This document shows positions 17,855 through 57,751 of a DNA stretch of 64,000 nt, one piece after another. Position numbers and translations under genes: made by a program. The notes under the pieces are model-generated. The model was not told the origin of the DNA. It did not search any database and worked only from the letters and a program-made list of their open reading frames with translations. The stretch comes from Escherichia coli phage Wa28: the sequence record LC788710.1. One strand, 5' to 3'. Each line of letters starts with the position of its first letter. The stretch's first letter is position 1.

Positions 17855-18208
17855 TTAGCGAATCTCTAAACCCTGGAAATATCGAGGGAATGGAGAGCCA
17901 ACTTCAAAATTGATGCCCCAATTAAGTTCAACGAGTTCAGATTTATTAAGATCTAGGCCATTACCTTCAAAGATATAGCCGTAAACCGCAGGAAACATAG
18001 CTGCTAGATCTTCCATATCGGAATGAGCATTGTGTTCTTCACGGAACTGCTCAAACTCTTCAAAGAACTTTTCTAGGAAGAACTCAGGTACGATGAACGT
18101 TACCACATCAGTAGAATCATCGGTACGATACACCGTAGCTTGGAACAAGCCAACACCTAAAAGGTTTATTGCCGGAGTAGTAAAAATATCCATCTTAGCC
18201 TCGCTCAA
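17855..18208 (-). CDS. hypothetical acidic protein
   Basis: ORF track 117 aa. Confidence 0.45.
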   Translation of the reverse strand: MSEAKMDIFTTPAINLLGVGLFQATVYRTDDSTDVVTFIVPEFFLEKFFEEFEQFREEHNAHSDMEDLAAMFPAVYGYIFEGNGLDLNKSELVELNWGINFEVGSPFPRYFQGLEIR

Positions 18209-18380
18209 TGTCTAGACAAATTGCATATTCAGGGTTGATACCAGTACCTTTACATGTAGGACATTCCCATTCTCTACAGAAAATACCCCCCGGTTCTGCA
18301 TCATCCTGCCTACCACCACCATGACAGTCCTTACACCGACATTCTTCTAATGCTTTCTTCATTTCATAGAATCTAGACAT
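18195..18380 (-). CDS. small zinc-ribbon-like protein
   Basis: 61 aa; CKDCHGGG...CPTCKG. Confidence 0.4.
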   Translation of the reverse strand: MSRFYEMKKALEECRCKDCHGGGRQDDAEPGGIFCREWECPTCKGTGINPEYAICLDIERG

Positions 18381-18397
18381 ATAGTCTCCTGGTTAAT

Positions 18398-18475
18398 TGG
18401 TGGCTCCCGGAGGATTCGAACCTACCTACCTTTCGCTTATGAGGCGACGGCTCATACCAAATGAGCTTGAGAACC
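18398..18475 (-). tRNA. tRNA with CAT anticodon (Met or Ile2/lysidine candidate), manual call
   Basis: D-arm GCTC-ATTTGGTAT-GAGC, loop CTCATAA, acceptor GGTTCTC/GGGAGCC with G-U pairs. Confidence 0.5.
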
Positions 18476-18480
18476 AAATT

Positions 18481-18574
18481 TGGAGGAAGATGCCAGACTC
18501 GAACTGGCACACCGTGTCTCCACAGCTACTGGCTGTTTAGCAAACAGCTCCCTTACCTTTAGGGTTAATCTTCC
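18481..18574 (-). tRNA. tRNA-Ser (anticodon GCT), class II, manual call
   Basis: Anticodon stem-loop GCTGT-TTGCTAA-ACAGC, long variable arm, CCA end. Confidence 0.55.
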
Positions 18575-18588
18575 GAATTTATGAATAT

Positions 18589-18617
18589 ATTATACAGAAA
18601 ATTTCGGCATTAAGCAA
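18589..18617 (-). promoter_or_regulatory. early promoter immediately upstream of tRNA-Ser(GCT)
   Basis: Conserved module (-35 TTGCTT, -10 TATAAT). Confidence 0.6.
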
Positions 18618-18625
18618 GTGAAATT

Positions 18626-18922
18626 TTACTGAACACTGCACTGATACACTTGTTTGATACGTGTCACTGACTTCTTAGTTGGATTGATAGAAGAACCTTG
18701 CCACCAACGTGACTCTGAGCTAAGAACAGCGCCAGGAACAGCCTGCTCTTTTGGCAGAACAATATCAAAACACTGTTCACCCATATTATCTTTAATGTGT
18801 GACCAAATATCCAAAGTAAATCGTTCTAACTTATTACAAACCTGAACTTGACAAAGTTCCTGTTGCGGAGCAGCAAATACAGAAGTAGATACTAGAGCCA
18901 ATGCAAGTACAATGCGTTTCAT
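18626..18922 (-). CDS. secreted Cys-containing protein (signal peptide)
   Basis: 98 aa; MKRIVLALALVSTSVFAAP. Confidence 0.5.
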   Translation of the reverse strand: MKRIVLALALVSTSVFAAPQQELCQVQVCNKLERFTLDIWSHIKDNMGEQCFDIVLPKEQAVPGAVLSSESRWWQGSSINPTKKSVTRIKQVYQCSVQ

Positions 18923-18952
18923 GTTTGATTCCTCTCTCGAATTTATAAATAT

Positions 18953-18981
18953 ATTATACAGAAATTTTCTATATTAAGCAA
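18953..18981 (-). promoter_or_regulatory. early promoter
   Basis: Conserved module. Confidence 0.6.
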
Positions 18982-19028
18982 GTGAAAATTTCTGTATAAT
19001 AGCCCTCGCTTAGAGGGCTATAACTACT

Positions 19029-19721
19029 TTATTTGTTAACGCGTACAAAGTATCCTTTATAAGCTCCAAGAATAGAGTTGCCTAAGAATACTAGCCACAT
19101 TGCTAGGATTGCGTAAGATGCACCTGTAGATTGAGCAGTTACAAGCCAAATGTACACAGTACCAATGTTAATAGCAATCCAAATCAGCCATTGTTCAGCA
19201 TATTGTTTGACCATAAGCCACATAGCAATCACACTACCAACCGCAGTAAATGCATCCAACATTGGGAATGGATCAGCCGTAGTAGCAAGGAAACTACCAT
19301 AACCTAACGTGGCTACTGCTAAAATCCCTAGAGTCAGCAAAGCTTGAGCTTTTGTCAGAACTTTAGTTGGAACATCCGGTAGATTACTTGGCTTATTTTT
19401 ATGCCACAAGTACATTCCGTAGAACTGCATAGGAACGTAGTACAATAGGTTTAGTGCTGCGTTACCATAAAGATCAGCATTTAGAGCTGTAATACCGTAG
19501 GTCAGAACACCTACCAAACCCCAGACATAGTTGGAAACACGTCCTTTTGCAACCAGAATAACACAAACCACATTGGTTATTGCAGTAGCCCAATCTAGAG
19601 CTGTACCATTATAGTTTGCTAAACTAATGAAGACAACCGCTATGAACAGCCACAGATATTCCAGAGGTTTCCAGTTTTTAAAGTCATTTACGAGATAGTT
19701 AGTCATATTAAAACTCTCCAA
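19029..19721 (-). CDS. pnuC: nicotinamide riboside transporter PnuC-like
   Basis: 230 aa polytopic membrane protein with PnuC-like Trp/Tyr-rich helices (WKPLEYLW..., MQFYGMYLW). Confidence 0.7.
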   Translation of the reverse strand: MESFNMTNYLVNDFKNWKPLEYLWLFIAVVFISLANYNGTALDWATAITNVVCVILVAKGRVSNYVWGLVGVLTYGITALNADLYGNAALNLLYYVPMQFYGMYLWHKNKPSNLPDVPTKVLTKAQALLTLGILAVATLGYGSFLATTADPFPMLDAFTAVGSVIAMWLMVKQYAEQWLIWIAINIGTVYIWLVTAQSTGASYAILAMWLVFLGNSILGAYKGYFVRVNK

Positions 19722-20781
19722 CGTTAAAGTGATGAATCAGCCAGTCTACTGCGTTTACTGCTTCGTCCATACGAACTTTGTAGTCCGGAGAGTCGATGTA
19801 AACAGTACGCCCTTCAGGGAACTGATTTGGAAATTCTTTCTTCATCTGCTCGAACAGTTCAGAAGTAATTGAACGATCGGAGTTAATACGTAAACCATCA
19901 TCTACCCACTTGACAGTAGGCGCTAGAACAATTACTAAATCGTAATGTTCTTCTTTTGCAATTGCTGTAACCACAGGGTTCTTACTATGTTCATAAAGTC
20001 TGTGGTAGAACTCAGTAATAAAAGCATTTGTATCCACAAACATGATCTTATTTGCAGTACGTTCTGCTTCAAACTCTAGCTCTTTGTGTCTGAACGCAAT
20101 TTTACTATAGTCTTCGCTGGTAAGCAGATTTTCGTTACCAACTAGATCAACTTCACAATACGTTCGGCCATATTCTTCTACCCACGAAGTGTTGTATAGC
20201 TTCGCAAGGTATTTTGTTAAAGTAGTCTTTCCTGAGCTTTCAGTCCCAATGATTACAACCTTACGCACGTAATCTTTACGAGCTACGCTAGGAAGAAACT
20301 CCCAATACTTCATAAGATCATTACGAATCATTGTAGCTGAGATTGGAACACGAGTCCGATCAGAATCTACAATATAATGACCAAACTTCGGCAGATATTT
20401 CTTATATTCTGCATCATAGTCTAGTTCGCTAGAGAAAATGGTGATCTCAGGCAAATGTCCGTAATTTTCATTAAGGATTCTAGCATATTCCGGCCAACCA
20501 TTCGGATATTCAGGAATATCATCTTCAATAATGTACTCTACCGAAATGTGCTCAATATCCGCGTAAGTTTGTTCTAACCAACGAAGTCGATTCTTTAACT
20601 GTAATACTTCCTGATCACGAGTGTTCTGCTTATCCAGCCAACGATTATCATGACTAACTACAACAATAACTCGTTCACACATAGTTGCTGCTGTGTTTAT
20701 TAGGTTAATATGACCACGCGTTAATGGCGCGAACTTACCAATTACTAGACCAGTCTTAATCATATTTGATTCCTCTCTCAA
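19708..20781 (-). CDS. NadR-like bifunctional NMN adenylyltransferase / ribosylnicotinamide kinase
   Basis: 357 aa; nucleotidyltransferase motif GKFAPLTRGHINLI; Walker A IIGTESSGKTTL in C-terminal kinase-like domain. Confidence 0.7.
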   Translation of the reverse strand: MREESNMIKTGLVIGKFAPLTRGHINLINTAATMCERVIVVVSHDNRWLDKQNTRDQEVLQLKNRLRWLEQTYADIEHISVEYIIEDDIPEYPNGWPEYARILNENYGHLPEITIFSSELDYDAEYKKYLPKFGHYIVDSDRTRVPISATMIRNDLMKYWEFLPSVARKDYVRKVVIIGTESSGKTTLTKYLAKLYNTSWVEEYGRTYCEVDLVGNENLLTSEDYSKIAFRHKELEFEAERTANKIMFVDTNAFITEFYHRLYEHSKNPVVTAIAKEEHYDLVIVLAPTVKWVDDGLRINSDRSITSELFEQMKKEFPNQFPEGRTVYIDSPDYKVRMDEAVNAVDWLIHHFNVGEF

Positions 20782-20793
20782 ATTTATAAATAT

Positions 20794-20822
20794 ATTATAC
20801 AGAGAATTTAGCGTTCAAGCAA
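20794..20822 (-). promoter_or_regulatory. early promoter upstream of NadR-like gene
   Basis: Conserved module. Confidence 0.6.
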
Positions 20823-20969
20823 TCGAATTTTTAAACTTTTTAGTGGAAAAATCTCAAGGCATTTAGTGGTAGCACGTTGTTGCTACAATAATAGTATATG
20901 ATTCTAAAGAATTAAAGAATTAAATACTAAAGACCTTAGTTGAATAACTTATGGGCTTTTCTTTTGCCT

Positions 20970-21009
20970 TAAATACAGAAAAGCCCGCGCTCTCGGAGGA
21001 AACGCGGGC
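20970..21009 (-). terminator. rho-independent terminator (tandem hairpins)
   Basis: GCCCGCG...CGCGGGC hairpin followed on minus strand by TTTTCTGTATTT. Confidence 0.55.
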
Positions 21010-21034
21010 TTGGTTCGAAGATTACGTGTAACTA

Positions 21035-21979
21035 TTACTTGTTACGCATATCCATGATCATTTGACCATCGTAGCCAGTACCAACAACAGTCTGCGGTAC
21101 ACCACCTTGGTATTTTTCAGCACGAAGCATTTCAACTTCCAGCTGCTTCCAACGAATCATTTCAGGAGTAATGGTACGTTGCAGCGCGGCGTTAGCTTCA
21201 GCTTCTTTCTTAGCTGCGTACAGTTTAGCATCTGCGTCACGTTCGTTAGCTACTGCCATGTTTTCACGAGCAGAACGATCAGCTTCAGCTTGCTTAACTT
21301 TCTGCTGTGCTTCTTGTTCAACACGAGCCAATTCAGCTTTAGCGGCGTTAACTTGTTCTTCACGAACTTTTGTGTTTTGTACCTGTTCCATGATTACAGG
21401 TGGCAGAGTAATATCCTGAAGGAATACTTGCTTAACCGTGTAACCATAAGGACGCGCGTACTCTTCTACTTCTTGCTGAATAGCAGTTTGCAGTTGAGCC
21501 TGAATCTTAGCGTCGAACAGATCTTGTGCTTTTGGTACAGACTTACCAAACTCACGAATCGTAGATAGCATCTTCTCTTCAACGTACTTGTTCAGAGCTT
21601 GATCCTGAGTACCTGCGTTAACACGGTTCATAGGAGCTTTAGCACCATCAAACTGCAACATAACGGTAATGTCAACAGTGGACTTAAACTTATCCTGGCT
21701 AGGAACCTGGAGTTTATCCAGTTTCATAGAAATATCTTTCGTACTAAAAGTATCAAAAGAGGCGAATGGGTTGACAATATGGAACCCCGGCAATACAGGA
21801 TTAGGACTAACTTTACCCAGGAAAGTCTGAGTTTTAACCGTACCGTCCTGAACAACTGTATAGGAATTGAGAGCCAGAATAAGAGCGCCAAGACCAACTA
21901 CAGCACCAACACCCCAACGTTTAATAGTACGAATTACTTTTTGATCGGAAGTCAGTTCTTTAGTGTTTTTAGTAAACAT
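21035..21979 (-). CDS. SPFH/band-7 (prohibitin/HflK-like) membrane protein
   Basis: 314 aa; N-terminal TM, SPFH-like core and long Ala/Glu/Gln-rich coiled coil. Confidence 0.6.
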   Translation of the reverse strand: MFTKNTKELTSDQKVIRTIKRWGVGAVVGLGALILALNSYTVVQDGTVKTQTFLGKVSPNPVLPGFHIVNPFASFDTFSTKDISMKLDKLQVPSQDKFKSTVDITVMLQFDGAKAPMNRVNAGTQDQALNKYVEEKMLSTIREFGKSVPKAQDLFDAKIQAQLQTAIQQEVEEYARPYGYTVKQVFLQDITLPPVIMEQVQNTKVREEQVNAAKAELARVEQEAQQKVKQAEADRSARENMAVANERDADAKLYAAKKEAEANAALQRTITPEMIRWKQLEVEMLRAEKYQGGVPQTVVGTGYDGQMIMDMRNK

Positions 21980-21990
21980 ATATTTCCTTA

Positions 21991-22191
21991 TTATTTAGAA
22001 GAGTTAGCTACTACAGTTACTTTAGTTGCAGAAATAAACAGGCTAGCATCCACAGCAAATTCAGGAGCTTTGATATCTCCGTTATGAAATATGACTATAC
22101 CGGAGACTACTTCAAATGCTAGCGCTGTAACATCGGTGGTATTTACTTGTGAATGTTCACCTACTACTTTTACTATATATCGTGTTTTCAC
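21991..22191 (-). CDS. hypothetical small protein
   Basis: ORF track 66 aa. Confidence 0.35.
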   Translation of the reverse strand: MKTRYIVKVVGEHSQVNTTDVTALAFEVVSGIVIFHNGDIKAPEFAVDASLFISATKVTVVANSSK

Positions 22192-22217
22192 TTTATTTTC
22201 CTAGCAGTTAATAAAAT

Positions 22218-22292
22218 TGGCCGAGGTGACAGGATTCGAACCTGCATAAAGGAATTTAGAAGACTCCTGCCTATCCCTTAGACTACACCCCG
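22218..22292 (-). tRNA. tRNA-Arg (anticodon TCT), manual call
   Basis: CAGGTTCGAATCCTG T-arm, anticodon stem-loop GGAGT-CTTCTAA-ATTCC, CCA end. Confidence 0.55.
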
Positions 22293-22299
22293 TTTAGGT

Positions 22300-23130
22300 A
22301 TTTTTAAGAACTCTTATAAAAGCTCTTAAAGATACCAGACGGTAGGTAGGGTCAGCCCCCTCAGATTAAGCTCTGCAGCCCTTCCGTCAGACAATATCTT
22401 CCAGTTTAAGTCAGGGTGACTTTGTGGTTATGTTCTCCGTATGTGAAGAACTCGGTTAGGCTTAGGTCATGACTCCCAGCCTACTGCTGCCGCTCAACAG
22501 GAATTATCGCGAATTACCTGTACTATTGGGCACCATTAGTGACATCTCTCATGTCAGCGTTTCCCACTCTCATATTCACGCGGTCTGTTAGAATCGCACC
22601 TCCGATTTTCGATGCGAAGCTGGATGCCTAGTCTCAGGTTAAACGGGGCACACACTAGGCAGTGATCCCGAGTTCCGAGTTTGGTTGAGGCCGTCAGGTT
22701 TCCTCGTGGTTTAGCTGTTTCGATTCTAACCTAATACTGATCAGGTGGCGTACCTCCTGAACCGTCATAGTATGTACTCCAGCAGCGAATGCTTATCCGG
22801 TATAAGCCCGAGTTATCTGATTCTTTCCGACCGCAGGATTCGAACCTGCATCTTCCACCAGTTACGGTTTGATATTACCGTTTATACTAGGACGGCAGTG
22901 TTATCACATAAGTCAGTTCGACACCCCACTAACATAAACTAGAGAAGAGTTTACGAGATTTCGGGACAGCTCCCGAGTTTTCCGCAGATTTTCAGTTCCC
23001 TATCAATAGCAATAAGCGTTAGCTCGTAGCCTCTCTCAGAGTACTTACTAGTCTCCAACTCACCGACTCTATTCAGTGGAATAGCTATCCTAGTAGGAAT
23101 CACTAAACTCACTCAGCGTAATCGGCTCGC
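22300..23130 (-). ncRNA. ~0.8 kb promoter-driven region without ORFs; candidate structured noncoding RNA(s) with a tRNA-like T-arm element
   Basis: No minus-strand ORF of 60 aa or more; early promoter at 23152-23180 points into it; GCAGGTTCGAATCCTGC element near 22826-22850; locally higher GC. Confidence 0.35.
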
Positions 23131-23151
23131 TGTTCTCTAATTTATGAATCT

Positions 23152-23180
23152 ATTATACAGAATTTTGAGGCGTTTAGCAA
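23152..23180 (-). promoter_or_regulatory. early promoter directed into the noncoding region
   Basis: Conserved module (-35 TTGCTA, 17 bp, -10 TATAAT). Confidence 0.6.
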
Positions 23181-23188
23181 ATCAATTT

Positions 23189-23632
23189 TTAATTAAATTC
23201 GCCAGCAACCTGAGCAGCAATGCCACCGTCGTAACGACCAGGAAACTCTTCCTTAATCGCTTTCATCAGCATACCTTTTGTAATCCCAGGGTTCAACTTA
23301 ACTAATTCTGCAAAGTATTTGCGAATCTCAGAATCAGATAACTGAGGCGGCAGATACTGTTGTAGCCATTTGTTCAGTATATACTCATACTGAGCAGACT
23401 GCAAGCTATAATTATCAAGGTCTTGACCGTGAAGTTTAGCTTTCGTCTGATTAATGCTTTTCAGTTGAGCTTTTAGATAAGATACAAACTGTTCAGAAGT
23501 AATGAAGTCTTTATCAACACGCTGAAGATCTCCGATTATGGTCTGGTAGCTTTTAGCTACTTCTTTATCAGAACCATCAACCTTAGATTCCTGCAAAGCC
23601 CTACGCAAAACATCTAGAATATTCTCTTCCAT
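23189..23632 (-). CDS. GatB/YqeY-domain protein
   Basis: 147 aa; overall similarity to YqeY family, C-terminal GGIAAQVAGEF. Confidence 0.5.
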   Translation of the reverse strand: MEENILDVLRRALQESKVDGSDKEVAKSYQTIIGDLQRVDKDFITSEQFVSYLKAQLKSINQTKAKLHGQDLDNYSLQSAQYEYILNKWLQQYLPPQLSDSEIRKYFAELVKLNPGITKGMLMKAIKEEFPGRYDGGIAAQVAGEFN

Positions 23633-23802
23633 TATTTAATTCCCAGTGCTTGGTTAAAAGATTGTTCTGTCATAACTGCCGAGACTTTAGCGAAATCAAA
23701 CTTCTTAGGGTTTGTAGTAATTTCAGCAACGTTAGTAGTTTTAACTGTTTTCGTAGTACGGATACCACGAGTATTAACACCAATAATTACAACTGATTTC
23801 AT
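23632..23802 (-). CDS. small ORF (56 aa) missed by ORF track
   Basis: ATG at 23800-23802 with GAGAGG SD; stop overlaps ATG of downstream gene. Confidence 0.35.
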   Translation of the reverse strand: MKSVVIIGVNTRGIRTTKTVKTTNVAEITTNPKKFDFAKVSAVMTEQSFNQALGIK

Positions 23803-23833
23803 ATTTCGCTTCCTCTCATTAATTTATGAAAGT

Positions 23834-23862
23834 ATTATACAGAAATTTAAGGCTTTAAGCAA
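23834..23862 (-). promoter_or_regulatory. early promoter
   Basis: Conserved module. Confidence 0.6.
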
Positions 23863-23870
23863 TCGAATTT

Positions 23871-24338
23871 TTAAGTTTTCTTAACCACAGGCTTGTAGAA
23901 CGTATGGCCTTGAATCTTCGTTGTTTTCTTAAACTTCTTTGTCCAGTACGGTTTATCTTTACCACTATGGAAGTATAACGCTCCATGTGTTGGATCTTGT
24001 GGTAAATCAACGTAGTATATCACTCTAGCTAAATTCTTAGCAACTTGCCAAGCCTCATCGGTTTTATCAACTTTTGGTCTCTTGGCCACCCAAGAGAACT
24101 GGTTAGACTGATATACTACTTTACAGTAAGAATCAGGAAAAGTACCAGAGTTAACACGGTTTTTAGTAACCTGTGCAACTGCGATCATTCCTTTAGTGCC
24201 CTCACCTCGTGCTTCGAAGTAGATATTTTTTGCAATGCAATCAATCTGCTTTGAGTCGTAGGTCGCATGACTATTGAAGCTATAGGTTAGGGCAGCTATT
24301 AAAAGCAAAGCTGCCTTCATTTTATTTACTCCGGCCAA
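23871..24338 (-). CDS. secreted SleB-like cell wall hydrolase domain protein
   Basis: 155 aa; signal peptide; NIYFEARGEGTKGMIAVAQVTKNRV...FPDSYCKVVYQSNQFSW. Confidence 0.6.
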   Translation of the reverse strand: MAGVNKMKAALLLIAALTYSFNSHATYDSKQIDCIAKNIYFEARGEGTKGMIAVAQVTKNRVNSGTFPDSYCKVVYQSNQFSWVAKRPKVDKTDEAWQVAKNLARVIYYVDLPQDPTHGALYFHSGKDKPYWTKKFKKTTKIQGHTFYKPVVKKT

Positions 24339-25957: not shown

Positions 25958-25997
25958 AATTGTTTTCCTTTTGTTGTTCTCTCAAATTTATGAATAT

Positions 25998-26026
25998 ATT
26001 ATACAGAATTTTGGAGCTGAAAGCAA
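25998..26026 (-). promoter_or_regulatory. early promoter
   Basis: Conserved module. Confidence 0.6.
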
Positions 26027-38902: not shown

Positions 38903-38931
38903 TTGCTTTCGAGCTAAAACTTATGTATAAT
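38903..38931 (+). promoter_or_regulatory. early promoter (TTGCTT-17bp-TATAAT)
   Basis: Followed by conserved ATTTATAAATTTGAGAGGAG and ATG. Confidence 0.65.
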
Positions 38932-38959
38932 TGATTTATAAATTTGAGAGGAGAAAGCT

Positions 38960-39454: not shown

Positions 39455-39617
39455 TTTAGAAAATATGCTTATGGAGCAGTGGAATGCTGGGTATAATGCT
39501 GGAGTAGCTACCTGTATTGCTGGTTTGGATATGCTTATTAAGCAAGAGAAGGTTCGCCCAGAAGAAGCAATTCTGCTCCAAAATATCATCGAAGGATTCA
39601 AGCAAGGAATCGTATAA
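39423..39617 (+). CDS. hypothetical small protein (start uncertain; track gives 39339)
   Basis: In-frame ATG at 39423 limits overlap with upstream ORF. Confidence 0.35.
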   Translation: MDFLNQNLKSNLENMLMEQWNAGYNAGVATCIAGLDMLIKQEKVRPEEAILLQNIIEGFKQGIV

Positions 39618-40468
39618 TGCGTAGACTAATCGTTGTTAGTGGTGCAGGTTTGAGTGTAGATAGTGGTGTTCGTGCTTTCCGTACTGATACTGCTAGTGGG
39701 AAATCCTTATGGGATGAGTACGATCTAGAGGAAGTATGTAGCTTGCCTAACTTTGAAGCTGGCTTCCGTCGCTTCTGTGGTGAAGATGATCCTAACTACT
39801 TCAGTGCTCGTTTCCCTGGCATTGATGAAGATGGTAACGATCTGTATCTCAAGACTCATGAGTTCTACAACATGCGTCGTCAGGAATTACAGACTGTTGA
39901 GCCTAACATTGCCCATCTGCGAATTGCAGAATGGTTCCAGCGTTATGGTGCGGATAGCGTGAAGAACTTCACTACTAACGTTGATGACCTTCTGGAACGT
40001 GCTGGTATCCCTCGTGATGAAATCATTCACGCTCACGGGTACTTGAAAGAGGTGATCTATCGTCAGGGTCGCAACCAAATCATTGAAGATGTTGGGTATA
40101 CTGCGATTGCCCCTGAGGATTACGAATGGGTAAAACCAAACGTAACATTCTTTGGTGAGACGGCTCCGTGGTATATGGGTCAGATTAACCTGTTTGATAC
40201 ACTTACTAGCAATGATATGGTTATTGTAGTAGGTTGTAGCAACCAAGTAATCGACTTCAACTGGGAGCTATTTCCTGCTGTATGTCGTGGAACTAAGATG
40301 ATGGTTGTTAACCCACAAGTTCGTTATGACGAACAGCTTGAGTATGAGAAACGTGGTGTTACTGTATGGCGTGCTGGAGCTGCCGAAGTTTTTGGTAATA
40401 AACACTTTATTGATCAAGTTGAAGCTTTTATGGAGGGAAATATTTATGTCCCAGAAAAGCATGTGTGA
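39617..40468 (+). CDS. Sir2-family (sirtuin-like) NAD-dependent protein
   Basis: 283 aa; N-terminal VVSGAGLSVDSGVRAFRT matches the sirtuin GAGIS...G...FR NAD-binding motif. Confidence 0.6.
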   Translation: MRRLIVVSGAGLSVDSGVRAFRTDTASGKSLWDEYDLEEVCSLPNFEAGFRRFCGEDDPNYFSARFPGIDEDGNDLYLKTHEFYNMRRQELQTVEPNIAHLRIAEWFQRYGADSVKNFTTNVDDLLERAGIPRDEIIHAHGYLKEVIYRQGRNQIIEDVGYTAIAPEDYEWVKPNVTFFGETAPWYMGQINLFDTLTSNDMVIVVGCSNQVIDFNWELFPAVCRGTKMMVVNPQVRYDEQLEYEKRGVTVWRAGAAEVFGNKHFIDQVEAFMEGNIYVPEKHV

Positions 40469-45755: not shown

Positions 45756-45784
45756 TTGCTTTCAGGAAAAATTTTCTGTATAAT
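45756..45784 (+). promoter_or_regulatory. T5 PN25-type strong early promoter
   Basis: TCATAAAAAATTTATTTGCTTTCAGGAAAATTTTTCTGTATAATAGATTCATAAATTTGAGAGAGGAG matches the PN25 sequence as I recall it. Confidence 0.85.
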
Positions 45785-45815
45785 AGATTCATAAATTTGA
45801 GAGAGGAGTTTAAAT

Positions 45816-48043: not shown

Positions 48044-49015
48044 ATGACTAATGTAAAAGAATTTATTAAACGCTGTCAAGAAGCATATTATCAAGGTATG
48101 TCTTTAATCTCTGACGAAGAATATGATCGTCTGATTAAAAGATTCCCACTAGAGGAAGAAATCGGACCGAAAGGTGATATTCCTCATTTGTATCGTATGT
48201 ATTCTTTGCAGAAAGTCTATTACGGTCGCGGTGATAAAGCTCCATTCAATCCATTAGGTCAGGTTGAAACTGATAAGTTAGATGGTTGTGCGATTTCTCT
48301 ATTATATATTAATGGTGAATTTGTTCAAGCGTTAACTCGTGGTAACGGTATTCTAGGGAATGATGTAACGCATAATGTTAAAATGCTGAACATCCCCAAA
48401 ACTATTTCCCAAAAAGTACCAACTCAAATCACTGGTGAAGTTCTCATTACTAAAGAAGTAGAGAACAAACGTAACTACGCTTCGGGTGCTATTAACCTGA
48501 AAGACAGCGATGATTTCATCCAACGTATTGGTGAAGGTGGTTTAATCTTCGTTGCATACGGTATCCAGTGTTCAGCGGAAACAGTCGGTATTACAGAAGC
48601 CTATTTAAAAGATATGCTTTGGCTAGAGAATGAGAACTTCTTGACAGTTGTTAATGTTCGTTCCTTCTTTAAATGGATTCCGACAGATGGTAAAGTTGTT
48701 CGCATTAACGACAACAATAAATTCTTCCGTGAAGGTTGGACTAATAAATTTCCTCGTGGTGCATTTGCTATTAAAGAGGATGAAGAAGGCGAAATTACCA
48801 CACTTGTTAAAGTTGAATGGCAAGTAGGGGCTTCTGGTAAAGTAACTCCAGTTGGTTATTTCGAACCGGTGATTATTGATGATGCCACAATCGTTAAAGC
48901 AACTCTTAATAACGTTGATTATATTAACGCTCTCGATTTAGAGATCGGTTGCCAGATTCGAGTGATTCGTGCTGGTGGTGTAATCCCTTGTATAGTAGAG
49001 CGAGTATACGACTAA
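48044..49015 (+). CDS. ligA: NAD-dependent DNA ligase, N-terminal (adenylation/OB) part
   Basis: 323 aa; adenylation motif KLDGCAISLLY and LigA-like domain order. Confidence 0.75.
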   Translation: MTNVKEFIKRCQEAYYQGMSLISDEEYDRLIKRFPLEEEIGPKGDIPHLYRMYSLQKVYYGRGDKAPFNPLGQVETDKLDGCAISLLYINGEFVQALTRGNGILGNDVTHNVKMLNIPKTISQKVPTQITGEVLITKEVENKRNYASGAINLKDSDDFIQRIGEGGLIFVAYGIQCSAETVGITEAYLKDMLWLENENFLTVVNVRSFFKWIPTDGKVVRINDNNKFFREGWTNKFPRGAFAIKEDEEGEITTLVKVEWQVGASGKVTPVGYFEPVIIDDATIVKATLNNVDYINALDLEIGCQIRVIRAGGVIPCIVERVYD

Positions 49016-49214: not shown

Positions 49215-49997
49215 TTGATGAAAATCGAAATTCCAACACAATGTCCCTCTTGTGGTTCTAAGCTAGATCTTGTCAACGGGCAATTATTCTGTAGGAATAA
49301 GTCCAACTGTCCAGCGCAATCAAGTAAGTTAATCGAGAACTTCTGCACAAAAATGAAGTTAAAGGGCTTTGGCCCGAAAACTATTGAGAAACTGGAGCTG
49401 ACTAAGATCTCAGAACTGTTTTACCTGACCGAAGAAGATTTGGTCGGAGCTGTGGGTAGCAAGGTTGCCACTAAATTGATTAGCGAGTTAAATACTAAGG
49501 TTCGCGGAGACATTGACTTTGGTTCAGTTCTCGGTTCTTTAGGAATTCCTCTTATTGGAGAGGTTGCAGCAAAGAAACTGTCCCAAAATTGCACTAGCTT
49601 CCACGATGTGAAGGCTGACGGCAAGGCTGGAGAAAATTACAAAACCTGGCTAAATTCCCCACAAGGCAAGGATGTTATTGAATTACCGTGGAAATTCTCA
49701 ACTGGTATCCGAGGTGCTAAAGCTGACATCATCATTACAGATGATTTAGTTGCCCAGCCAAATGGAATCACGGTCTGTATTACCGGATCTTTGCAATATT
49801 TTGCAAATCGAACGGATGCAACAAACTATTTAGAAAGTCTAGGGTATACGGTTAAGAAGTCCGTTACCAAAGACGTCAAATACCTAATCTGTGAGGATGA
49901 ATCAAAACGTTCTTCCTCATCTTATAAGAAAGCCGAAACGAATGGGATAGAAATCCTGTCGATTAAAGAACTATTGGAGAAAAATAATAATGTCTAA
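49215..49997 (+). CDS. NAD-dependent DNA ligase, C-terminal (Zn-finger/HhH/BRCT) part
   Basis: 260 aa; CPSCGSKLDLVNGQLFCRNKSNCPAQ zinc finger like LigA; BRCT-like C-terminus. Confidence 0.75.
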   Translation: MMKIEIPTQCPSCGSKLDLVNGQLFCRNKSNCPAQSSKLIENFCTKMKLKGFGPKTIEKLELTKISELFYLTEEDLVGAVGSKVATKLISELNTKVRGDIDFGSVLGSLGIPLIGEVAAKKLSQNCTSFHDVKADGKAGENYKTWLNSPQGKDVIELPWKFSTGIRGAKADIIITDDLVAQPNGITVCITGSLQYFANRTDATNYLESLGYTVKKSVTKDVKYLICEDESKRSSSSYKKAETNGIEILSIKELLEKNNNV

Positions 49998-57668: not shown

Positions 57669-57680
57669 TTATTGTATAAT
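57652..57680 (+). promoter_or_regulatory. early promoter (first of tandem pair)
   Basis: TTGGCA-17bp-TATAAT then ATACACATAAATTTGAGAGAG. Confidence 0.55.
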
Positions 57681-57751
57681 ATACACATAAATTTGAGAGA
57701 GAAAGTTTCGGATTGATAAGAAAGTCCGAAGCAGAAAAATAAAAATTGTAC

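What the first reader, a model, noticed from the sequence alone, without database searches (positions are those of the whole stretch)
19029..20781. Phage-encoded NAD+ salvage pair: PnuC-like transporter plus NadR-like NMNAT/ribosylnicotinamide kinase
Two adjacent, overlapping minus-strand genes behind their own early promoter encode a PnuC-like nicotinamide riboside transporter and a protein with a nucleotidyltransferase motif (GKFAPLTRGH) and a Walker-A kinase domain, as in NadR but without the N-terminal repressor domain. Together they would let the infected cell import nicotinamide riboside and convert it to NAD+. This fits a genome that also carries an NAD-dependent ligase and a Sir2-like protein, and it could counter NAD-depleting host defences.
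Basis: partly seen in the sequence, partly recalled or inferred. Interest (0 to 1): 0.6.

Follow-up and report, generated by a model that had tools for sequence, protein, structure and literature searches.

The report
Known phage NAD+ salvage operon (NARP3)
But this same gene pair, from a nearly identical T5-like phage, was already published in 2026 with crystal structures and biochemistry, so it is not new.

Summary
The window is a T5-like phage genome of the genus Epseptimavirus. Minus-strand CDSs 20763..19708 (351 aa) and 19706..19029 (225 aa) encode a NadR-like NMN adenylyltransferase/ribosylnicotinamide kinase without the HTH domain, and a PnuC-like nicotinamide riboside transporter. HMM and PDB hits are very strong.

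The pair is the "NARP3" operon, Bas30_86/Bas30_87 of Escherichia phage TrudiRoth. The enzyme differs from Bas30_86 by 1 residue and the transporter from Bas30_87 by 2. Every residue named as functional in Yan et al., Sci Adv 2026 (PMC13464706; PDB 9X6H/9X6F) is present. That paper showed NR binding and import, NR->NMN->NAD+ catalysis, and rescue from Sir2-HerA and DSR1 NAD+ depletion. Osterman et al. predicted the operon in 2024.

- The real starts are ATG codons, so the genes do not overlap (TAA-T-ATG).
- The motif is T-R-G-H, the T variant of (H/T)xGH.

Small additions:
- The operon has a T5-type promoter/leader cassette.
- It sits in a variable slot that T5 itself fills with other genes.
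- A conserved secreted 98-aa protein of unknown function recurs next to nadR/pnuC in three phage lineages, but not always.

Verdict: real, correctly interpreted, already known. The role in the native phage is still untested.

The parts
20794..20822 (-). Sigma-70-type promoter of the operon, of the T5 early type: -35 TTGCTT (20822-20817), 17-nt spacer, -10 TATAAT (20799-20794).
   Evidence: Read directly from the sequence. It is almost unchanged in phage TrudiRoth. The generic scan reported only an offset hexamer pair at 20818-20789. Promoter function is inferred.
20764..20799 (-). Conserved -10/leader/Shine-Dalgarno cassette TATAATATATTTATAAATTTGAGAGAGGAATCAAAT, directly before the nadR-like ATG.
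   Evidence: The pattern TATAATNNNTTNATAAATTNGAGAGAGGA occurs 7 times in the window against 0.00 expected. One copy lies at 18930-18958, before the next gene.
19708..20763 (-). nadR-like gene, 351 aa: N-terminal NMN adenylyltransferase domain (about residues 1-166) and C-terminal ribosylnicotinamide kinase domain (about 167-351), with no HTH domain. It is the Bas30_86 orthologue.
   Evidence: HMM and PDB hits are. It differs from Bas30_86 only by A161V. K10, F11, H18, S37, E80, P84, Y86, G89, F110, S112, D115, V139, I141, K163, R167, K168, E230 and D275 are all present, as are TRGH 15-18, SATMIR 142-147 and Walker A 173-180.
19029..19706 (-). pnuC-like nicotinamide riboside transporter gene, 225 aa. 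It is the Bas30_87 orthologue and is probably translationally coupled to nadR: GGAGAG lies inside the nadR 3' end and the junction is TAA-T-ATG.
   Evidence: PF04973 147.7 bits and TIGR01528 120.4 bits. PDB 4QTN E=2e-32 over residues 9-215. It differs from Bas30_87 by V61I and L213M. The NR-binding residues N45, Q94 and N180 are present.
18999..19021 (-). GC-rich hairpin ATAGCCCTC-TAAGC-GAGGGCTAT, 8 nt after the pnuC stop. It is a possible terminator and operon boundary.
   Evidence: Read from the sequence. It has no clear U-tract and the terminator scan did not flag it. Its 5-nt loop is inverted relative to TrudiRoth.
20981..21011 (-). Terminator-like hairpin with a 12-bp stem (7 GC pairs), between the upstream SPFH/Band-7 gene and the operon promoter.
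   Evidence: Flagged by the terminator scan.

Best explanation
This is the NARP3 NAD+ reconstitution operon of a T5-like (Epseptimavirus) phage.

Proposed sequence of events:
1. A strong T5-type promoter drives a bicistronic mRNA (inferred).
2. The second gene product, a PnuC-type inner-membrane transporter, imports nicotinamide riboside (NR).
3. The first gene product is a NadR-type enzyme without the repressor HTH. Its C-terminal P-loop kinase domain phosphorylates NR to NMN. Its N-terminal (T/H)xGH nucleotidyltransferase domain adenylates NMN with ATP to give NAD+.
4. The infected cell can therefore rebuild NAD+ from an external precursor when NADase defences such as Sir2-HerA or DSR1 deplete it.

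Status of each step:
- Shown here: gene structure, family membership, near identity to the characterised proteins, and presence of every residue reported as functional.
- Shown elsewhere for 99%-identical proteins: NR binding, both catalytic steps, NAD+ restoration and phage rescue, all by plasmid expression with phages T7, lambda and Klebsiella phages.
- Inferred: early timing, translational coupling, and the benefit to the native phage.
For: Phage identity:
- The region is 98.8% identical to Salmonella phages BSP22A and SH9 (Epseptimavirus), where the genes are annotated as NMNAT and PnuC.

Family membership:
- HMM hits are above curated cut-offs for PnuC (TIGR01528, PF04973) and NadR (NF005988).
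- PHROGs places both proteins in the category 'moron, auxiliary metabolic gene and host takeover': phrog_3462 and phrog_1880.
- PDB 9X6F/9X6H is identical except for one residue.

Comparison with Bas30:
- 1 and 2 amino-acid differences, none at a functional residue. The operon DNA with its flanks is 95.9% identical. Neighbours, promoter and the 1-nt junction are the same.

Published experiments (PMC13464706):
- The transporter is a trimer and binds NR with Kd about 0.66 uM. N45A, Q94A and N180A abolish binding.
- HPLC shows NR->NMN->NAD+.
- The NAD+ complex structure was solved.
- Rescue depends on NR, with EC50 of 3.6-5.6 uM.
- Both genes are required.

Prior prediction: Osterman et al. 2024.

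Conservation of the pairing: nadR and pnuC lie together in Aeromonas Shenzhenvirus, the Serratia jumbo phage BF, Vibrio phage D30, Bacillus phage KoopaTroopa, a Klebsiella phage, Xanthomonas phage XbC2 and a metagenome contig. NadR-like and PnuC-like genes have near-equal counts per host genus: 791 and 780 of 50,697 phage records.
Against: - Nothing was tested for this exact sequence or in any native T5-like phage. The authors state this limitation themselves.
- The equivalog-domain model TIGR01526 scores 269.5, below its strict cut-off of 341. This reflects divergence from cellular NadR.
- The first His of HxGH is Thr.
- The hairpin after pnuC lacks a U-tract, so the 3' end of the operon is uncertain.
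- 'Early' timing rests on promoter resemblance and genome position only.
Confidence: 0.93

Rival explanations
1. The biochemistry is the same, but the main native purpose differs. The operon would chiefly top up NAD+ for the phage's own NAD-consuming enzymes (the split NAD-dependent DNA ligase and the Sir2-family protein) during massive DNA replication, and counter-defence would be a side benefit.
For: - The window encodes both NAD consumers.
- The native phage context has never been tested.
- The jumbo-phage literature frames such clusters as phage-autonomous NAD+ supply.
Against: - T5 itself lacks the operon: the locus homologous to this region carries T5.076-T5.079 instead. Its Epseptimavirus relative BSP22A carries both the ligase and the operon. 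The operon is therefore dispensable for T5-type replication. Whether T5 has the ligase was not checked here; that it does is from memory.
- Heterologous expression gives a strong counter-defence phenotype.
- The two roles are not mutually exclusive.
Confidence: 0.25
2. The transporter and enzyme act on a different substrate. Some PnuC-family members carry other vitamins or nucleosides, and the nucleotidyltransferase might adenylate something other than NMN. In that case the NAD+ annotation would be wrong.
For: - PnuC is a family with varied substrates (general knowledge, not tested here).
- The TxGH variant is typical of PPAT.
- TIGR01526 scores below its cut-off.
Against: - Proteins that are 99% identical bind NR and make NMN and NAD+ in vitro, and a crystal structure holds NAD+ in the NMNAT site.
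- All ligand-contacting residues are identical.
Confidence: 0.02
3. The NadR-like protein acts mainly as a regulator of host NAD genes, like the enterobacterial NadR repressor.
For: Several GenBank records label it 'NadR transcriptional regulator'.
Against: - There is no HTH domain. The match to the full NadR model starts at profile position 59.
- The protein begins at the NMNAT motif, 9 residues from its N-terminus.
Confidence: 0.01

Closest known systems
NARP3 (Bas30_86/Bas30_87) of Escherichia phage TrudiRoth; Yan et al., Sci Adv 2026; PDB 9X6H/9X6F
   Same: - Same genus, locus, gene order, promoter and 1-nt junction.
- The proteins are 350/351 and 223/225 identical.
- All residues reported as functional are identical.
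   Different: - Only A161V in the enzyme and V61I, L213M in the transporter.
- The loop of the downstream hairpin is inverted.
- The DNA is 95.9% identical.
Bacterial NadR (E. coli 8X7F, H. influenzae 1LW7, L. lactis 6GYE) with PnuC (N. mucosa 4QTN)
   Same: - Same NMNAT + RNK two-domain enzyme and the same transporter fold family.
- Same NR->NMN->NAD+ route.
   Different: - The phage enzyme has no HTH repressor domain.
- It has TRGH where cellular NadRs have HTGH.
- The phage genes form one operon, whereas E. coli nadR and pnuC are unlinked.
NARP1 and NARP2 (Osterman et al. 2024)
   Same: All are phage two-gene pathways that rebuild NAD+ to defeat NAD+-depleting defences.
   Different: - NARP1 starts from ADPR plus nicotinamide.
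- NARP2 starts from nicotinamide through Nampt plus an NMNAT/Nudix enzyme.
- NARP3 needs external NR and includes a membrane transporter.

Membership tests
NARP3 phage operon (Bas30_86/87 type) | A nadR-like gene without HTH, immediately followed on the same strand by a pnuC-like gene. | tested here: met
   CDSs 20763..19708 and 19706..19029 on the minus strand, with a 1-nt spacer. The layout is identical in TrudiRoth.
NARP3 phage operon (Bas30_86/87 type) | Sequence orthology to the characterised proteins, with retention of the residues shown by mutagenesis or structure to matter. | tested here: met
   99.7% and 99.1% identity. All 23 enzyme positions checked and all 3 transporter residues are present.
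NARP3 phage operon (Bas30_86/87 type) | Restores NAD+ and rescues phage from NADase defences in an NR-dependent way. | not testable with these tools
   This was shown only for the Bas30 proteins expressed from plasmids. The native phage context is untested.
NadR-type bifunctional NMNAT/RNK | HMM score above the curated family cut-off. | tested here: met
   NF005988 scores 254.3 bits against a cut-off of 201, over profile positions 59-407. The stricter TIGR01526 equivalog-domain model scores 269.5, below its cut-off of 341.15.
NadR-type bifunctional NMNAT/RNK | Nucleotidyltransferase signatures: (H/T)xGH and SxTxxR. | tested here: met
   T15-R-G-H18 and S142-A-T-M-I-R147. G17 and H18 are invariant in 6 phage homologues, and position 15 is H or T. 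Cellular NadRs have HTGH and PPAT has TNGH.
NadR-type bifunctional NMNAT/RNK | P-loop kinase domain with Walker A and the WVxDxxR lid region. | tested here: met
   GTESSGKT at 173-180. G173, E175, S176, G178, K179, D244, W286, V287, D289 and R292 are invariant. AAA_28 E=9e-32.
Trifunctional enterobacterial NadR repressor | [quoted passage not shown] | tested here: not met
   The protein starts 9 residues before the NMNAT motif, and the NF005988 match begins at profile position 59.
PnuC nicotinamide riboside transporter | HMM score above the curated cut-offs and full-length similarity to solved PnuC. | tested here: met
   PF04973 147.7 bits against 27.3, and TIGR01528 120.4 against 42.45. PDB 4QTN E=2e-32 over residues 9-215.
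PnuC nicotinamide riboside transporter | Actual NR transport. | not testable with these tools
   NR binding and NR-dependent rescue were shown for Bas30_87, which differs by 2 residues.

The most novel reading that the evidence does not exclude
In its native setting the module may have a third, unrecognised partner. This is the secreted 98-aa protein with four cysteines encoded directly downstream of pnuC (18626-18922, phrog_6894, no known fold). It also lies directly next to nadR, or one small gene away from it, in the unrelated jumbo phages BF and XbC2 and in Seunavirus PVP-SE1. It could act in the periplasm with PnuC, for example in NR supply or capture. Separately, the main native role of the operon could be to feed the phage's own ligase and Sir2 protein rather than counter-defence.
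Probability: 0.08. Interest if true: 0.45.

Novelty: already known. Interest (0 to 1): 0.12.

Why it matters
NAD+ depletion is a common bacterial abortive-infection strategy, and phage pathways that rebuild NAD+ decide who wins. This operon is one such pathway, but it has already been named (NARP3), solved structurally and tested biochemically.

What this window adds is confirmation that the characterised system is essentially invariant across Epseptimavirus phages of Salmonella and E. coli. It also adds a few leads: the native-phage role, the variable locus compared with T5, and the neighbouring secreted protein.

Tried and rejected
- Riboswitch or other RNA element in or near the operon: an Rfam E-value scan of 18000-24000 found only tRNAs.
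- Generic promoter and terminator scan: totals were no higher than in shuffles. It caught only an offset reading of the promoter and missed the hairpin after pnuC. The promoter claim therefore rests on the repeated cassette and on conservation.
- Was the 6-residue TTG extension (MREESN) used in the crystallised protein? No. The PDB chain carries a His tag directly before MIKTG.
- Is ORF98 an obligatory third component? Rejected. Nine homologues in other phages and contigs have no NadR or PnuC within 3-6 kb.
- A search for other papers using the name NARP3 found only unrelated uses of the word.
- No structure was predicted for NadR or PnuC, because a crystal structure and a close PDB homologue already exist.

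Full report
**What is there**

The window is a T5-like phage.
- The 2.1-kb region around the finding is 98.8% identical to Salmonella phages BSP22A and SH9 (Demerecviridae, Epseptimavirus), and 333 phage records match it.
- The window carries 29 tRNA genes.
- Synteny with BSP22A, SH9 and TrudiRoth is complete around the locus.

Both begin at TTG, and the likely starts are the ATGs.
- nadR-like gene: ATG at 20763, 8 nt after GAGG. pnuC-like gene: ATG at 19706, 7 nt after GGAGAG.
- These starts give 351 and 225 aa, as annotated in every close relative.
- The crystallised protein has a His tag directly followed by MIKTG.
- With these starts the genes do not overlap. The junction reads TAA-T-ATG, and the pnuC ribosome-binding site lies inside the last nadR codons. 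This suggests translational coupling, which is an inference.

**Family assignment**

Transporter:
- Pfam NMN_transporter: 147.7 bits against a cut-off of 27.3.
- TIGR01528 PnuC: 120.4 bits against 42.45.
- It aligns over residues 9-215 with Neisseria mucosa PnuC 4QTN, E=2e-32.

Enzyme:
- AAA_28 E=9e-32 and CTP_transf_like E=4e-7.
- The NadR model NF005988 scores 254 bits against a cut-off of 201, but only from profile position 59 onward, so the HTH domain is missing.
- The stricter TIGR01526 model scores below its cut-off, 269.5 against 341.
- Matches to solved structures: H. influenzae NadR E=2e-55, E. coli NadR E=3e-50, L. lactis NadR E=2e-43.
- Signatures present: TRGH at 15-18, SATMIR at 142-147, Walker A GTESSGKT at 173-180.

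- Cellular NadRs have HTGH, and PPAT, which uses TNGH, aligns to the same stretch.
- Six phage homologues have either H or T at position 15, while G17 and H18 are invariant.
- This is the ordinary (H/T)xGH variation, not loss of the motif.

**Already characterised**

The best PDB match is 9X6F/9X6H, labelled 'Nicotinamide-nucleotide adenylyltransferase', which is identical except for one residue. These are the structures of Bas30_86 from Escherichia phage TrudiRoth (Yan et al., Sci Adv 2026, PMC13464706).

I fetched the TrudiRoth locus and compared it directly.
- The enzyme differs by A161V.
- The transporter differs by V61I and L213M.
- The operon with its flanks is 95.9% identical at the DNA level.
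- The promoter and leader are almost unchanged.

Every residue the paper names is present:
- Enzyme: K10, F11, H18, S37, E80, P84, Y86, G89, W90, Y93, F110, S112, L114, D115, V139, I141, K163, D164, R167, K168, E230, D275.
- Transporter: N45, Q94, N180.

What the paper shows:
- The transporter is a trimer and binds NR with Kd about 0.66 uM.
- The enzyme converts NR to NMN to NAD+ in vitro.
- NAD+ sits in the NMNAT site of the crystal.
- Both genes together restore NAD+/NADH depleted by Sir2-HerA and raise T7 and lambda plating 10^3-10^4-fold. They also counter DSR1.
- Rescue depends on NR, with EC50 of 3.6-5.6 uM.
- The system works in Klebsiella.

Prior recognition:
- Osterman et al. had already pointed to this NadR/PnuC operon in BASEL phages as a probable further NAD+ reconstitution pathway.
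- Jumbo-phage surveys list pnuC/nadR clusters.
- PHROGs files both proteins in its category for auxiliary metabolic genes.

**Context checked**

- The Sir2-family gene (39617-40468+, PF02146 E=1e-21) and the split NAD-dependent ligase (48044-49015+ with adenylation and OB domains; 49215-49997+ with BRCT) are in the window.
- The operon has a T5-type promoter: TTGCTT, 17 nt, TATAAT, then a conserved leader. The -10/leader cassette occurs 7 times in the window against none expected, including before the next gene.
- From memory, the copy at 45779-45807 equals the classical T5 P-N25 downstream sequence. I did not test this.
- A terminator-like hairpin with a 12-bp stem separates the operon from the upstream SPFH/Band-7 gene.
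- The hairpin after pnuC has no U-tract and was not flagged.
- 'Early' expression is thus plausible but inferred.

**Distribution**

- T5 itself lacks the operon. Between its SPFH homologue T5.080 and the tRNA-Ser/Ile pair it carries T5.076-T5.079 instead. The site is therefore a variable accessory slot.
- tblastn finds NadR-like genes in 791 and PnuC-like genes in 780 of 50,697 phage records. Counts per host genus nearly match: Salmonella 174/174, Klebsiella 47/47, Bacillus 24/24, Vibrio 355/384.
- This is wider than the 124 operons reported in the paper.
- The two genes are adjacent in Aeromonas Shenzhenvirus, Serratia BF and Vibrio D30.
- They are close together in Bacillus KoopaTroopa (pnuC first) and about 2 kb apart in a Klebsiella phage.

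**A side lead**

The next gene (18626-18922, 98 aa) has its own promoter cassette.
- It encodes a signal peptide, four invariant cysteines and an invariant SRWxQG..NPTKKSVT motif.
- It has no Pfam family and falls in a PHROG of unknown function.
- Homologues at 55-61% identity, more conserved than NadR or PnuC between the same phages, lie directly upstream of nadR in Serratia BF.
- They lie one small gene upstream of nadR in PVP-SE1, Xanthomonas XbC2 and a 145-kb metagenome contig.
- Nine other homologues stand alone, with no NadR or PnuC within 3-6 kb.
- It is therefore a recurrent but not obligatory neighbour.

**Verdict**

The system is already published as NARP3, with structures. What remains open is its role in the native phage, which the authors say they could not test. 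Interest is low for novelty. The biology itself is sound.

Noticed in passing
[not shown]
   Followed up: partly
window 18999-19021 vs L006:3685-3707: The hairpin after pnuC has the same stem as in phage TrudiRoth, but its 5-nt loop is the reverse complement (TAAGC here, GCTTA there). This looks like a loop inversion.
   Followed up: no
window 18930-18958, 20771-20799, 23811-23839, 25975-26003 (-); 38926-38954, 45779-45807, 57675-57703 (+): A T5-type -10/leader/Shine-Dalgarno cassette (TATAAT...ATAAATTTGAGAGAGGA) is repeated 7 times against 0 expected. From memory, the copy at 45779-45807 matches the classical T5 P-N25 promoter downstream region.
   Followed up: partly
L007 (phage T5, NC_005859.1 37279-39671), compared with window 19029-20763: T5 lacks nadR/pnuC. 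The same slot, between the SPFH gene and the tRNA-Ser/Ile pair, holds a Toprim-like gene annotated 'DNA primase' (T5.076) and three opposite-strand genes (T5.077-079). This marks a variable accessory island.
   Followed up: partly
window 22293-23300, with a tRNA-like hit at 22825-22896 (-): An ORF-poor stretch of about 1 kb lies after tRNA-Arg, at the position where T5 is annotated with the stable 'RNAX' of unknown function. It contains a borderline Rfam tRNA match (29.3 bits, E=0.005) that ARAGORN did not call.
   Followed up: no
L018:784-1710 (Xanthomonas jumbo phage XbC2): An ADP-ribosylglycohydrolase-family gene (PF03747) lies about 4 kb upstream of the ORF98-nadR-pnuC cluster in this jumbo phage. 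It is another gene related to NAD/ADP-ribose in the same neighbourhood.
   Followed up: no
window 21035-21979 (-); L022:3918-5234: An SPFH/Band-7 membrane protein gene lies directly upstream of the operon and is conserved in T5 as T5.080. A Band_7 gene also lies two genes upstream of an ORF98 homologue in an unrelated 101-kb contig.
   Followed up: no
window 18195-18380 (-): A 61-aa protein with a DnaJ-type CXXCXGXG zinc-finger / anti-TRAP-like motif. The Pfam hits are sub-threshold, E about 1e-4. It lies between tRNA genes.
   Followed up: no
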